Below, piece after piece: positions 39,779-49,132 of a stretch of 64,000 bases of DNA. The position numbers and the translations under genes were made by a program. Below the pieces are notes generated by a model. The model was not told the DNA's origin. It ran no database searches and saw only the letters and a list, made by a program, of their open reading frames with translations. Location: the IMG/VR virus record IMGVR_UViG_3300042935_001404, one strand, 5' to 3'. Origin of the DNA: a virus. Taxonomy: Duplodnaviria > Caudoviricetes. The stretch's first letter is position 1, and every line of letters starts with the position of its first letter.

Positions 39779-41098
39779 TTATTGAGATCTTAACCACTGA
39801 ATTAGTCGTCGATGTAAATTATAAAGTTTTTTACTAGATCCTGGATCTTGTTTTAATATTTTTTTTCGTATCGCTCTTCGAAATATGCCACGTGGTTTTT
39901 TGACGAGTCGAAATGCATCTATAAAATTTGTTTTTAATTCTTCAATTACCTGTTGTTGAAATGCATCGCTAAAAAAATGTTTTTTGTTAAAATCCGCTAT
40001 GCGTCTAATTTCTAGTAAAAATTGATCAAACTCCGGTGCGCCAAGAGAATTAATTTTATTCAGGCTGTTGATAATTTTTTCAAGTCTTAACAAACTATTT
40101 GTCTCTTGATCATAACTTTCGTCAATCCAAGGAGCAAATGTTCGAAATCCGTAACTTCTTAGATATTCTAAACTATGCGGGCCTGCTGCCAACACAAATG
40201 GATGTCCGCAGGCAATTGGTCTCAGTATCTTTTCTGTCAAGTGAATTCTTGAGTCGTCAAATATAGTTTCCAAAACTACACTTATTGCAGTTGAATTAAA
40301 ATCATCATGATTGTACTGTGCGCTTTCGTTGCTGTCACTGTGATTGTCTTCAAACAGATCTAGTACAGTGCTGTCTTTGAGCGCAAAATTAATATTTTTA
40401 AATTTGTGGTCCCGGTAATGATACCCTTGATCGCCTTCGGACCGTCTTGATATACTGATTTTACTTTGTTCATGCAATCCATGTTTGACCAACAACTCTA
40501 TAAACTTTAATCTGTATTCTCTAGTGTTGCCCCAGGCACGATTGTATATTAGGAATTTTTTACAAACTTGAGATTGCGTTGTTAGCCGAGTATCTATCTC
40601 GGCAAATCTATACCAGTCACGAGCAATAATTGCATGGCACCAATAATAAACTGGTAAAAAATTATTTTGAGAATACTGTTCTAAGTCAACAGAATTTTTT
40701 TCAGAATGCAGTAAAATTGCCTGTTCATAAAGAGATCCACACAACAATGGTATTGACAATAAATTTTTATCAACCGCCGCTTGACTACTTATTTTGGCCA
40801 CAGTGGGTTCGTTTAATGCAATGTGTAATGACACAGGATCAATATTTGTATAAAAATTATAATGCAATGGCTCTTGGTCGTGTGCAACAACTGGAATGTT
40901 AATAAAATATGTTAGGCCGTCAACACCATTGGCGCCAAGAGCAGTCAATGCATCAAGATCAGTTAATGTATCAATATCAGTCAATGGTCTGAGGTCAGAA
41001 ATATCTTTACTACCGTGAGGATAAAATCTGTAAAATGCTGTCGGAACAGGTATAATCGATTGCACCCAGTGGTACAAATTGTCTAAGGGAATGTTCAT
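39779..41098 (-). CDS. putative glycosyltransferase-like protein (ET..TEK family)
   Basis: VVLETIF..LTEKILRPI..GHPF..GFRTF..DESYD. Confidence 0.45.
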   Translation of the reverse strand: MNIPLDNLYHWVQSIIPVPTAFYRFYPHGSKDISDLRPLTDIDTLTDLDALTALGANGVDGLTYFINIPVVAHDQEPLHYNFYTNIDPVSLHIALNEPTVAKISSQAAVDKNLLSIPLLCGSLYEQAILLHSEKNSVDLEQYSQNNFLPVYYWCHAIIARDWYRFAEIDTRLTTQSQVCKKFLIYNRAWGNTREYRLKFIELLVKHGLHEQSKISISRRSEGDQGYHYRDHKFKNINFALKDSTVLDLFEDNHSDSNESAQYNHDDFNSTAISVVLETIFDDSRIHLTEKILRPIACGHPFVLAAGPHSLEYLRSYGFRTFAPWIDESYDQETNSLLRLEKIINSLNKINSLGAPEFDQFLLEIRRIADFNKKHFFSDAFQQQVIEELKTNFIDAFRLVKKPRGIFRRAIRKKILKQDPGSSKKLYNLHRRLIQWLRSQ

Positions 41099-41121
41099 GC
41101 CATTGGATTTTGTCTTTGAAT

Positions 41122-41435
41122 AAAAGGTAATTTAATTCTGTTACGAGGATAAATTACCAAAAACCCTAGGCAGTGTTTAGACTGCCAATGCTTCCTTGGC
41201 TGTACGAGCAGAGAACTTGACGTTCTTACCAGAAACAGTTACGGTTTTGTTTACGTTTGCATTTACGTTTTTTGCTTGATTAACGGTCATCGCCTACCGT
41301 GCTGTCCACTTGTTTACTTGTTGCCCTGTCGAATCTAGTGCTCCCCCACCTAAATATACTGAATACATTTAGGTGGAGGAGGGGGGATTCGCACCCCCGT
41401 CCAAGACACTTTTCTCTTTGCTTCATACAGCAATA
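41122..41435 (-). ncRNA. ssrA: circularly permuted (two-piece) tmRNA
   Basis: acceptor piece ..GGACGGGGGTGCGAATCCCCC CTCCTCC A (ends ~41374) precedes coding piece GGGGGAG CACTAGATTCGAC (starts 41347); 7-bp acceptor stem with G3:U70; tag ORF 41260-41177. Confidence 0.9.
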
Positions 41436-41440
41436 ACTCT

Positions 41441-41448
41441 TATTTATA
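41441..41448 (-). promoter_or_regulatory. T4-like late promoter TATAAATA upstream of tmRNA
   Basis: exact octamer; also seen at 28204-28211, 35912-35919, 51055-51062 (-) and 44887-44894 (+). Confidence 0.55.
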
Positions 41449-41450
41449 AT

Positions 41451-41525
41451 TGGTTGCGGGGGAAGGACTCGAACCTCCGGCTTCCAGGTTATGAGCCTGG
41501 CGGTCTACCACTGACGTACCCCGCG
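41451..41525 (-). tRNA. tRNA-fMet(CAT), initiator type
   Basis: C1:A72 mismatch, CCAGG-CTCATAA-CCTGG, CCA. Confidence 0.88.
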
Positions 41526-46639: not shown

Positions 46640-46875
46640 ATATGCTCTGCATCCCCCGGCGGTAATTATAGAGTATCAACATAGATTAATCCGGAATCTA
46701 ACTCAACTAAGGTTAGCGATTCTATGCATCACACACTCCTTCCACCCGCTTCCCGACAGGGACCGTTATCGCATTGCTAGCGGCCTTTTGGTAAGAAGAC
46801 TACCACCCTTGAGTAACGAACTCACTTCTCTCGTACGGGTCATACTAGCCAGGCGTTACCCCGACGGGTTCTTCT
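46640..46875 (-). ncRNA. unidentified multi-helix structured RNA
   Basis: nested helices incl. GAGTGT/ATACTC, GCATAGA/TCTATGT, GGTGG/TTACC, CCTGGC/GCCGGG with G.U pairs on minus strand; no ORF in track. Confidence 0.55.
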
Positions 46876-46923: not shown

Positions 46924-47685
46924 TTACAACCTAGATTCTATCATAGGAGCAATAAAATCAGCAATCTGAATATGAGCTTTTTCTGTAGGATGATGTGATA
47001 TTGGATTTAACAATCCAATATCAACTAAAAACGCTACTCTATTGGAGTCTACAACCCAATTTGAATAATGATAGTTGTTATCAACATTTTTCATGTTATT
47101 TCTCAAACACAATTGTGACATTAAATCTCTATCAGGTATATCAATCATATTGTCGATGGGTTGATGATACAGATGATGATTAAATGTATCAACCCATATA
47201 TTTTTGACCCCCATTGACTTATAAAAAACATTCCAAAAATTCATCTCAACTTCTAATTGTTGTACTTCGTGATTATGATCATATGAATGTTTAACCATAA
47301 ACTCGCTAAATTTATTTGGCATATTATATTTGCAATGTAACACAGACATTGTGTCTAAATCAAAAAATACATTTCGAGCAGTTGATGTGATTGCATGCAA
47401 TACAATAATTTTATCATATGTTTCTTGATCACATTTGAAATCAATTTTACTAAAATATCTTTTAGCATAATTAAATTGAGCTTGATTACTGCTTCCACCA
47501 TGTGCAAAATTTTTGTTATCTAATGCAAAATTTTTAGACAAAACACCACGAAATGATTTTGTCCCACAAATGTCTGAATTCCATGCAATAGAATTATACA
47601 CAGCAGTGGATTGCTCAATTTGATATCCTACACCAACTCCATAGGTCCAACTGCACCCAAACGTGATAAGCAAATTTTTATTCAT
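46924..47685 (-). CDS. SGNH/GDSL-hydrolase-like protein
   Basis: FGCSWTYG, NFAHGGSSN, SHHPTE. Confidence 0.55.
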   Translation of the reverse strand: MNKNLLITFGCSWTYGVGVGYQIEQSTAVYNSIAWNSDICGTKSFRGVLSKNFALDNKNFAHGGSSNQAQFNYAKRYFSKIDFKCDQETYDKIIVLHAITSTARNVFFDLDTMSVLHCKYNMPNKFSEFMVKHSYDHNHEVQQLEVEMNFWNVFYKSMGVKNIWVDTFNHHLYHQPIDNMIDIPDRDLMSQLCLRNNMKNVDNNYHYSNWVVDSNRVAFLVDIGLLNPISHHPTEKAHIQIADFIAPMIESRL

Positions 47686-48334
47686 GTTTTTGTAGTACCA
47701 TTCTTAATGTTCCCTCGGCCATGTTAGATCCAATATGAGTATCATCAAGTTCAAAACACAAAATCTCATCTCTAAAAATTTCAATTTGATCACGTATGTA
47801 TGTTGATGCAGTATTTTTTATTTCTGTAGTCTCTGCACCTATCATATGACACACATTCATCATGATAAAAATTTTACCACCTGGTTTGGTCATTTGTAAG
47901 ACTTGATTGATCCTGTTAGAAAATTGCGACAATGGAATAAAATGCAAAGCATTCATACTCATGATATTTTCAAATTTTTCTGTATTTTCCTTGACAAACG
48001 CATCATCTACAAACCCAACCTGGTCAGCATAAAAATTTAATGATTTTGAATCAATGCCGATTATGTTTGGAATATATTTTTTATATATGTTCCACCCACA
48101 TCCAATATCATAAATTTTAGAGCTTGATGCTAATTGTAAAATATAGTAAAAAGGAACCATTGAAAATATTCTTTTGCCACGATATTCGCGCGGCGTCATT
48201 CCCATAAAGCCCAAAGTTGGTATATTAGTTTCCCAAGTCAACAAATCAAAATCTTGTTTTACGTTACGTGCCAAATCAGTTGATTCAAAGCTTTTTCGAA
48301 AATTTTCTAAGTTATATGCGTTTAAATTGTTCAT
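47678..48334 (-). CDS. class I SAM-dependent methyltransferase-like protein
   Basis: IYDIGCG, IGIDS, SMNALHF, KPGG. Confidence 0.7.
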   Translation of the reverse strand: MNNLNAYNLENFRKSFESTDLARNVKQDFDLLTWETNIPTLGFMGMTPREYRGKRIFSMVPFYYILQLASSSKIYDIGCGWNIYKKYIPNIIGIDSKSLNFYADQVGFVDDAFVKENTEKFENIMSMNALHFIPLSQFSNRINQVLQMTKPGGKIFIMMNVCHMIGAETTEIKNTASTYIRDQIEIFRDEILCFELDDTHIGSNMAEGTLRMVLQKHE

Positions 48335-48518: not shown

Positions 48519-48597
48519 AAAAAGAGGAGAGCCACGGTTGCAGGACCTAGTGTCTCGTTGCCGAGAGAAGTGTCCAGGCGATGTGGCTCTCAAAACT

Positions 48598-48672
48598 TGG
48601 CGGTCTGTGGGGGAATCGAACCCCCGTAAGTGGATAGACAATCCACAGTAATAACCTCTATACGAACAGACC
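48598..48672 (-). tRNA. tRNA-Asp(GTC)
   Basis: GTGGA-TTGTCTA-TCCAC, G73, CCA. Confidence 0.92.
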
Positions 48673-48680
48673 AAAATCTA

Positions 48681-48895
48681 CTATTTTAAAACATACTAAA
48701 GGAACCATTGTGCATCTATGTCTACCTATAGGACCGTCTCCTATAGACCTGCACGGTCATTACTGCCTACATGCTCCGCCGCTTTTCTGGACATTTCTGC
48801 CCGGTTTCATGGACCTAGCTTGAGCGTGGGCGGCCCCACAGTCCTCGCCTTAGATCCCTAACGGTGTAGGTAACCTTTAATACGTTTTAAAATAG
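48681..48895 (-). ncRNA. unidentified 215-nt structured RNA with 22-bp closing stem
   Basis: 48895-48874 pairs 48702-48681 (two G.U on minus strand); inner hairpins GTGGG/CCCAC, GGGCA-GAAA-TGTCC, CTATAGGA/TCCTATAG. Confidence 0.6.
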
Positions 48896-48926
48896 CAACC
48901 CTTACGGGTTACCAAAAACAACAACT

Positions 48927-48959
48927 TTTTAAAGAACGTCTAGTTAATTTCCTAACTAG
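48927..48959 (-). promoter_or_regulatory. rrn-type boxB-boxA antitermination signal
   Basis: CTAGTTAG-GAAA-TTAACTAG hairpin followed by CGTTCTTTAAAA. Confidence 0.65.
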
Positions 48960-48964
48960 TCTCT

Positions 48965-48993
48965 AGTATAACACAATGGCTATATCTAGTCAA
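48965..48993 (-). promoter_or_regulatory. sigma70 promoter TTGACT-17-TATACT
   Basis: consensus boxes, TG upstream of -10. Confidence 0.8.
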
Positions 48994-49062
48994 TTTGTTT
49001 TGCAAAGTCCCTACACTGTGTAGGGTTATTTGCAGATCCAGCTAATTTCTTAACTTGTTTCT

Positions 49063-49091
49063 ATTGTAGCAAAATGGCGTTTAATTGTCAA
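49063..49091 (-). promoter_or_regulatory. sigma70 promoter TTGACA-17-TACAAT (tandem upstream)
   Basis: consensus boxes. Confidence 0.8.
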
Positions 49092-49132
49092 CTTAGTACT
49101 TTAGTATACCCTACGCACTGTAGGGTTATTAT

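What the first reader, a model, noticed from the sequence alone, without database searches (positions are those of the whole stretch)
48681..48895. Unnamed 215-nt RNA closed by a 22-bp AU-rich stem, first unit after the tRNA-operon promoters
Seen: CTATTTTAAAACGTATTAAAGG pairs with CCTTTAGTATGTTTTAAAATAG, both deviations being G.U on the minus strand only. Inside are GGATCTA/TAGGTCC, GTGGG-GCCG-CCCAC, a GNRA hairpin GGGCA-GAAA-TGTCC, CTATAGGA/TCCTATAG and GTGCA/TGCAC. Inference: a discrete ncRNA, possibly released by RNase III, and possibly a ribozyme or protein decoy.
Basis: partly seen in the sequence, partly recalled or inferred. Interest (0 to 1): 0.65.

Follow-up and report, generated by a model that had tools for sequence, protein, structure and literature searches.

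The report
Uncatalogued folded RNA of lake phages
This stretch is a real gene for a tightly folded, non-coding RNA found in uncultured giant freshwater phages, either at the head of their tRNA operons or as a stand-alone early gene; it matches no catalogued RNA family, is probably cut out by host RNase III, and most likely acts by binding a host protein.

Summary
Observation confirmed: the 22-bp stem and all listed helices exist (minus strand, z -5.1). The 110 distinct homologs (145-238 nt) come only from uncultured phage or metagenome contigs, one copy in each of six near-complete 320-383 kb genomes. The AU stem is a variable, sometimes absent clamp. It is about 22 bp long, shows the E. coli RNase III distal-box UA/UG signature at one register, and no terminator follows, which supports release by RNase III or RNase P (inferred). 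Forty of 110 copies have no tRNA within 3 kb of held sequence; two complete genomes place it among shuffled sigma-70 promoter/mini-gene cassettes, so it is a trans-acting gene, not a tRNA spacer. No match to Rfam, RNase P, SRP, 6S, Y RNA, T4 rnaC/rnaD or PA5oct ncRNAs. Homologs occur in metatranscriptome contigs. Best mechanism (inferred, 0.45): an early protein-binding decoy; rival: ribozyme or ligand binder (0.2). This scan reported apparently the same family before on other phage genomes.

The parts
49063..49091 (-). sigma-70 promoter P1 (11/12 consensus, extended -10)
   Evidence: conserved in relatives
48965..48993 (-). sigma-70 promoter P2 (10/12, extended -10)
   Evidence: a consensus promoter lies within 260 nt upstream in 84/110 homologs
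48927..48938 (-). boxA-like antitermination motif in the leader (inferred NusB/S10 site, as in rrn leaders)
   Evidence: present upstream in 28/110 homologs, usually about 50 nt before the core
48896..48913 (-). small leader hairpin abutting the stalk
48874..48895 (-). 5' arm of the 22-bp AU-rich closing stalk (P1); predicted RNase III cut between 48890 and 48889
   Evidence: rules from PMC1540722
48701..48876 (-). conserved 176-nt RNA core
48860..48873 (-). 5' strands of the short UUA helix, P2 and P3; partners at 48760-48762, 48766-48770 and 48776-48780
   Evidence: P2 and P3 100% paired in 110 cores, with compensatory changes
48811..48857 (-). arm P4 (variable, 34-64 nt); apical loop 48831-48834 kisses the P6 loop
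48806..48810 (-). junction strand AUGAA, which with AG at 48858-48859 forms the upper three-way junction
48781..48805 (-). arm P5 (variable, 20-86 nt; often GNRA-capped)
48757..48763 (-). invariant strand GUAAUGA of the lower junction
48703..48758 (-). arm P6 (variable; about 10-90 nt inside its base pairs); apical loop 48734-48738 is the kissing partner; base helix GAN/NUU covaries
48681..48702 (-). 3' arm of the closing stalk; predicted RNase III cut between 48685 and 48684
48598..48672 (-). tRNA-Asp, co-transcribed; RNase P cleavage at its 5' end would also free the RNA's 3' end
   Evidence: a tRNA lies within 60 nt downstream in 39/110 homologs; one metatranscriptome contig spans both

Best explanation
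A phage gene for a stable, trans-acting structured RNA. Host sigma-70 polymerase transcribes it, probably early, from a consensus promoter (here with rrn-type boxA antitermination). No terminator follows; the 5' leader pairs with the 3' trailer into a stalk of about 22 bp that host RNase III cuts, and/or RNase P frees the 3' end at the next tRNA, leaving a clamped RNA of about 200 nt. Two three-way junctions of near-invariant nucleotides form the working surface; three interchangeable arms and a 2-4-bp loop-loop contact brace them. The RNA most likely works as a decoy or scaffold that binds a host protein, most plausibly one acting on tRNAs or ribosomes (a translation factor or a translation-directed anti-phage effector). 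Shown: gene, fold, context, one copy per genome. Inferred: timing, processing enzyme, protein binding and the identity of the target.
For: Fold: (91.3% of cells paired, 36/54 pairs with two-sided change; slid controls 35-42%). Loop-loop contact: (18 of 45 loop types with 3 or more WC pairs; shuffles mean 8.1, max 17 of 2000). Trans-acting gene: promoter upstream in 84/110, no tRNA within 3 kb in 40/110; the commonest next ORF family occurs in only 7 of 57 loci; embedded in arrays of 24 and 19 promoters per 16 kb with ORFs of about 80 aa, like T4-type hyperplastic early regions (PMC2839356, PMC4122927). One copy in each of six near-complete genomes. Processing: stalk of 15 bp or more in 86/110 versus 0.2% in shuffles, distal-box signature, and similar stalks around an unrelated neighbouring RNA family. 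Conservation sits in junctions while the arms vary several-fold in length. Expression hint.
Against: No binding partner identified; no Ro60 in five carrier genomes; no local likeness to E. coli rRNA or RNase P RNA that would name a mimicked target. Invariant junctions braced by a peripheral loop contact are equally typical of ribozymes and riboswitch aptamers. Proximal-box position 1 is A-U, not the preferred G-C, E. coli rules may not hold for the host, and the UA/UG signature may be inherited from one ancestor. About 20% of homologs lack the stalk. Many tRNA-less loci are short contig pieces. Part of the invariance was imposed by the search patterns, although 5'-anchored and 3'-anchored searches agreed.
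Confidence: 0.45

Rival explanations
1. The RNA is a ribozyme or ligand-binding RNA of a new class: the invariant junctions are an active site or pocket, and the kissing loops play the role that loop-loop contacts play in hammerhead or VS ribozymes.
For: Near-invariant unpaired strands and G.U pairs next to junctions; the peripheral brace appears to switch from P4-P6 to P5-P6 when P4 is short (L574, L576, L577, L510); compact core with variable arms.
Against: No Rfam ribozyme or riboswitch hit even at E 10, including minimal variants; hammerhead motif 1/110, RNase P CR-I 15/110 and CR-V 22/110; no P4-type pseudoknot; no fixed downstream gene or expression platform; a protein-type processing stalk suggests that it does not cut itself out.
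Confidence: 0.2
2. It is an RNA-only oligomer or virion-associated structural RNA (GOLLD/ROOL/OLE or phi29 pRNA style): the complementary loops pair between molecules.
For: Covarying hetero-loop pairing; GOLLD and ROOL lie near phage tRNA islands and use intermolecular kissing loops, one of which was first read as intramolecular (10.1101/2024.12.08.627333).
Against: One contact of only 2-4 bp, absent in minimal variants (L531, L584, L609); a quarter the size of ROOL; sigma-70 early-type context, not late or packaging genes.
Confidence: 0.12
3. It is a cis-acting aid for processing or stabilising the tRNA operon transcript, with no function after release.
For: First unit after promoter and boxA in the window; a tRNA within 60 nt downstream in 39/110.
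Against: 40/110 copies have no tRNA within 3 kb and neighbours are shuffled; the conserved part is the interior, not the stalk.
Confidence: 0.07
4. It is a 6S-like decoy of sigma-70 RNA polymerase.
For: Length of about 200 nt with a long closing stem.
Against: No central single-stranded bubble: the 5' strand is continuously paired from P1 through P2; no 6S hit; the phage itself relies on sigma-70 promoters.
Confidence: 0.05
5. It is an antisense or base-pairing small RNA, or a small-peptide mRNA.
For: An AUG in the upper junction opens a 16-codon frame in the window.
Against: The AUG is absent in 11/110, frame lengths run from 2 to 41 codons and core lengths take all three phases; no long conserved single-stranded seed.
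Confidence: 0.04

Closest known systems
Phage T4 rnaC and rnaD (species 1 and 2 RNAs, 139 and 119 nt)
   Same: Non-tRNA structured RNAs inside a phage tRNA operon, function unknown (PMC3014915, PMC9697503).
   Different: No sequence or structure match to model R1 even with filters off; ours is longer, has a 22-bp stalk and often its own promoter outside tRNA clusters; the T4 RNAs are classed as late.
GOLLD and ROOL RNAs
   Same: Phage or prophage RNAs near tRNA islands, lake origin (GOLLD), kissing loops, unknown function (10.1101/2024.12.08.627333).
   Different: 659 to over 800 nt versus 145-238 nt; no Rfam hit; only one loop-loop contact.
PA5oct ncRNA001 (236 nt) and ncRNA002
   Same: Abundant ncRNAs (up to about 5% of phage reads) in the terminal-repeat region of the nearest cultured jumbo-phage group, which uses host RNA polymerase (PMC7318152).
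   Different: Not homologous.
Bacterial RNase P RNA (including short type T)
   Same: Closing stem, similar size to type T (own knowledge), tRNA-operon context, a loose CR-IV-like match in 78/110.
   Different: CR-I and CR-V not conserved, no P4 pseudoknot, nested topology differs.
rrn-operon processing architecture (boxA leader and RNase III stalk)
   Same: Tandem sigma-70 promoters, boxA-like motif and a two-turn helix flanking a stable RNA.
   Different: The enclosed RNA is not rRNA-like; boxA is present in only 28/110.

Membership tests
Any Rfam 15 family | covariance-model hit at gathering score | tested here: not met
   (E up to 10)
T4 rnaC/rnaD | sequence or structure homology | tested here: not met
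T4 rnaC/rnaD-like kind (phage tRNA-island stable RNA) | non-tRNA structured RNA co-transcribed with phage tRNAs | tested here: met
   window layout; 70/110 homologs near tRNAs
T4 rnaC/rnaD-like kind (phage tRNA-island stable RNA) | accumulates as a discrete stable species | tested here: inconclusive
   metatranscriptome contigs hold homologs; one 198-nt contig is confined to the core, but contigs cannot fix ends, strand or level
RNase P RNA | CR-I/CR-V pairing into the P4 pseudoknot | tested here: not met
   CR-I 15/110, CR-V 22/110; no such pair in the covariation ranking
RNase P RNA | cleaves pre-tRNA 5' leaders | not testable with these tools
   needs an in vitro assay
Small self-cleaving ribozymes (hammerhead, HDV/theta, twister, pistol, hatchet) | class-specific catalytic core | tested here: not met
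   no Rfam hit; hammerhead motif 1/110
Small self-cleaving ribozymes (hammerhead, HDV/theta, twister, pistol, hatchet) | self-cleavage in vitro | not testable with these tools
   needs experiment
6S RNA | central single-stranded bubble between two duplexes | tested here: not met
   5' strand continuously paired from P1 through P2; no Rfam hit
SRP RNA / Alu domain | helix-8 motif, or two adjacent kissing hairpins joined by a UGU turn | tested here: not met
   helix-8 motif 0/110; the kissing arms belong to different junctions
Y RNA / YrlA | tRNA-like T loop and a Ro60 gene in the genome | tested here: not met
   T-loop motif 1/110; no TROVE hit in 5 near-complete carrier genomes while controls rang
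GOLLD/ROOL | over 500 nt, multi-pseudoknot consensus | tested here: not met
   145-238 nt; no Rfam hit
E. coli RNase III substrate | helix of 11-22 bp with distal box UA/UG 10-11 bp from the cut and an AU-rich proximal box | tested here: inconclusive
   window meets the distal box and proximal-box positions 2-4 but not 1; 37/70 stalks meet the distal box at one register (PMC1540722); cleavage itself untested

The most novel reading that the evidence does not exclude
The family is a new class of trans-acting ribozyme, or an RNA-based counter-defence or host-takeover effector, that phages move around as a promoter-plus-RNA cassette in the same way as their early mini-genes.
Probability: 0.2. Interest if true: 0.9.

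Novelty: new variant of a known kind. Interest (0 to 1): 0.56.

Why it matters
Stable non-tRNA RNAs in phage tRNA clusters have been unexplained since T4 species 1 and 2. This family supplies what those lack: 110 natural variants, a covariation-supported fold, minimal versions of 145-156 nt that delimit the functional core, natural compensatory kissing-loop sets for mutagenesis, and a predicted maturation site. Its presence among early promoter cassettes suggests that such RNAs are host-takeover effectors and not by-products of tRNA processing. That is directly testable by in vitro transcription, probing, cryo-EM and pull-down, although no cultured carrier phage was found.

Tried and rejected
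Rfam at gathering and permissive thresholds on the window and 23 loci: nothing over the RNA. blastn against 50,697 cultured phages: one 29-nt chance hit. Pattern scan of GTDB genomes: six hits, none with the core; model R1 on 151 genomes of one phylum sample: none, which shows only 'not found in those searched'. Model R1 on eight cultured phages (Paride, Hallingskeid, fHe-Yen9-03, XacN1, Vibrio 2.275, RaK2, SHEFM2K, T4): only E of about 1 noise, one inside a CDS. PA5oct ncRNA001/002, T4 rnaC/rnaD, E. coli rrnB and rnpB: no match with filters off. The RNAalifold alternative, pairing the 5' GGUUA with UGACC, was rejected: its outer pair survives in 2 of 32 variants not selected for that sequence, whereas GAN/NUU is 99% paired with four pair types. 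A pseudoknot between the invariant GAA and UUC (RNase P P4-like) has no covariation support. Likenesses recalled from memory (group I P5abc, group II domain V, L1 stalk, kink-turn, VS ribozyme, retron) were inspected by eye only and are not claimed. Peptide coding rejected. The different RNA at the same position in L009 is not a substitute: it co-occurs with this family. No fixed protein neighbour, no Ro60 or RNase P protein. Full-text search for four sequence strings: no paper; the supplement of Fremin et al. 2023 (PMC10690425, candidates mined from IMG/VR) is not held, so overlap with its list is unchecked. Lack of contig cover on ORFs 47400-48300 is not used, because L001 lacks those ORFs. 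The window's own assembly is not held. One search used a gap range that was too long and so sampled only long variants; one search filled the gap.

Full report
Setting. The window comes from a large phage. It carries 24 tRNAs and a permuted betaproteobacterial-type tmRNA. A close relative is a complete 346,856-bp genome. The nearest cultured phages, at about 50% protein identity for the exonuclease tested, are PA5oct/Paride and the RaK2/GAP32 group. The host is unknown; a betaproteobacterium is inferred from the tmRNA only. The feature lies on the minus strand between two sigma-70 promoters and tRNA-Asp.

Observation. The minus strand folds at -79 kcal/mol, z -5.08; the plus strand folds less well. 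The closing stem has 22 pairs with two G.U. Rfam gives nothing over the stretch even at E 10.

Homologs. Neighbour-based and pattern searches gave 110 distinct cores of 145-238 nt in 163 loci, some being the same contig fetched twice. All are from viral or metagenome contigs. A covariance model finds one significant copy in each of six near-complete genomes of 320-383 kb; one contig, L348, has a tandem pair. It finds none in eight cultured phages or in 151 sampled bacterial genomes. The patterns fixed some positions, so invariance is partly by design. However, 3'-anchored searches returned no 5' variants, and the 5'-anchored search returned very different 3' arms that still kept GUAAUGA and UUCC.

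Fold. The conserved unit is the 176-nt core, 48876-48701. A lower three-way junction joins the stalk, a short UUA/UAA helix continuing into P2, and arm P6. An upper junction joins P3, arm P4 and arm P5 through the strands AG and AUGAA. Across 110 cores, P2 and P3 are 100% paired and the base of P6 99.7%; the six top-ranked mutual-information pairs are all pairs of this model. On 78 aligned cores, 91.3% of cells pair and 36 of 54 pairs show two-sided change, against 35-42% pairing when partners are slid. RNAalifold proposed a different lower junction; the divergent variants refute it (2 of 32 keep its outer pair), and agree with the MFE fold. The arms vary widely: P4 34-64 nt, P5 20-86 nt, the inside of P6 10-90 nt.

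Loop-loop contact. The P4 and P6 apical loops are complementary. Among 45 loop-type combinations, 18 have three or more Watson-Crick pairs, against a shuffle mean of 8.1 and maximum of 17; related sequences are not independent, so this is not a strict probability. The central two pairs occur as CG/CG, CA/UG, UG/CA and CU/AG. The third pair is often mismatched. Where P4 is short, the P6 loop instead matches a loop in P5 (L574, L576, L577; also L510, whose P4 is long). The data cannot say whether the contact is within one molecule or between two.

The stalk. It reaches 15 pairs or more in 86 of 110 copies (0.2% in shuffles) and is missing in about a fifth. Ungapped stalks are about 21-22 bp and 78% AU on the 5' arm, with wobbles concentrated at pairs 7-10. 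E. coli RNase III needs an 11-bp helix with a distal box UA/UG 10-11 bp from the cut and an AU-rich proximal box (PMC1540722; my numbering is deduced from the paper's text). At one register, 37 of 70 stalks show the canonical distal box, the best of 24 registers scanned. In the window this predicts cuts at 48890/48889 and 48685/48684. Only 1 of 106 copies has a terminator-like site downstream, so the 3' end must be made by processing. An unrelated RNA family beside it is often clamped by a similar stalk. The stalk is therefore a maturation device and not the functional part. RNase P cleavage at the next tRNA would serve where one follows. The enzyme is inferred, not shown.

Context. A consensus sigma-70 promoter lies within 260 nt upstream in 84 of 110 copies, often 19-29 nt from the core; a boxA-like motif occurs in 28. 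Seventy copies are near tRNAs; forty have none within 3 kb of the sequence held. Neighbouring ORFs are small and shuffled, and the commonest next gene occurs in 7 of 57 loci. In two near-complete genomes the RNA is one cassette in an array of 24 or 19 promoters per 16 kb with ORFs of median 84 and 77 aa. This resembles the promoter-mediated modular regions of T4-type phages (PMC2839356, PMC4122927). It argues for an independent, probably early, trans-acting gene and against a riboswitch, leader or tRNA spacer.

Expression. Contigs from four metatranscriptomes of four studies overlap the RNA. One of 155 nt lies within the core with two differences. One of 505 nt runs from the promoter region into tRNA-Asp. 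One of 198 nt at depth 261 belongs to a stalk-less homolog; by my arithmetic (191 minus 64 equals the 127 loose letters) it ends at the first core base and 7 nt past the last. Contigs cannot prove ends, strand or abundance, and RNA libraries may hold DNA, so this is a hint.

What it is not. Coding is excluded by variable frames and lengths. RNase P, SRP, 6S, Y RNA and the known small ribozymes fail their defining features. T4 rnaC/rnaD and PA5oct ncRNA001/002 are analogues without homology; their functions are unknown too. GOLLD and ROOL share the setting and the use of kissing loops but are far larger. No paper in the library holds the sequence; the Fremin 2023 candidate list could not be checked.

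Mechanism. Conservation concentrated in two junctions, dispensable arms, one copy per genome, protected ends and residence in both tRNA islands and early-type cassette arrays fit best an RNA that presents a fixed surface to a host protein. I give the decoy or scaffold model 0.45, with a translation-related or defence protein as the likeliest target; the target is an inference from context alone. A new ribozyme or ligand binder gets 0.2, an RNA-only oligomer 0.12, and the other readings less.

Earlier notes. The scan has reported what appears to be this family on other genomes. Those notes are unchecked and were used as leads only: the kissing loop, boxA, single copy and T4 comparison were tested here. 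The points I did not see in the few lines shown of those notes are the corrected lower junction, the RNase III register, the apparent brace switch and the early-cassette context.

Verdict. A real, conserved, uncatalogued phage RNA gene; a new variant of a known but unexplained kind. Interest 0.56.

Noticed in passing
window 48527-48591 (minus), between tRNA-Asp and tRNA-Glu: A second conserved small RNA of about 65 nt with a 9-bp closing stem, conserved flanking strands and a variable inner hairpin; more than 20 variants in related loci; no Rfam hit.
   Followed up: partly
L009:11497-11651; also L598, L602, L333, L543, L324, L300, L339, L034, L018: A different RNA family of about 150 nt (z -6.0), often directly downstream of the RNA studied here and often closed by a similar long stalk; no Rfam hit; covariation is visible in the hits.
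   Followed up: partly
window 41086-41500 (minus): Permuted (two-piece) betaproteobacterial-type tmRNA with a long 27-residue tag.
   Followed up: no
window 48927-48938 and 48965-49126: rrn-like leader: tandem promoters, each preceded by a similar short hairpin (49009-49025, 49108-49126), and a boxA-like motif about 50 nt before the core.
   Followed up: partly
L024:2300-2400; also L016, L030, L049, L291, L296: A conserved structured leader of about 100 nt between the promoter and the RNA in several tRNA-less copies, with a hairpin and a CCA just before the core in some; unidentified.
   Followed up: no
window 46924-48334 (minus): Two ORFs (253 aa unknown; 218 aa methyltransferase-like) are inserted between tRNA-Tyr and tRNA-Ala; the near-identical relative L001 has only about 200 nt there.
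   Followed up: no
window 46685-46870 (minus): A GC-rich non-coding stretch just upstream of tRNA-Ala that looks structured and has no Rfam gathering hit.
   Followed up: no
L348:99-509: Two diverged tandem copies of the RNA; the first has lost obvious loop complementarity.
   Followed up: partly
L506, L518, L530, L503, L524 versus L064, L296: Near-identical P4 arms occur with unrelated P6 arms, which suggests that arms are exchanged by recombination between phages.
   Followed up: no
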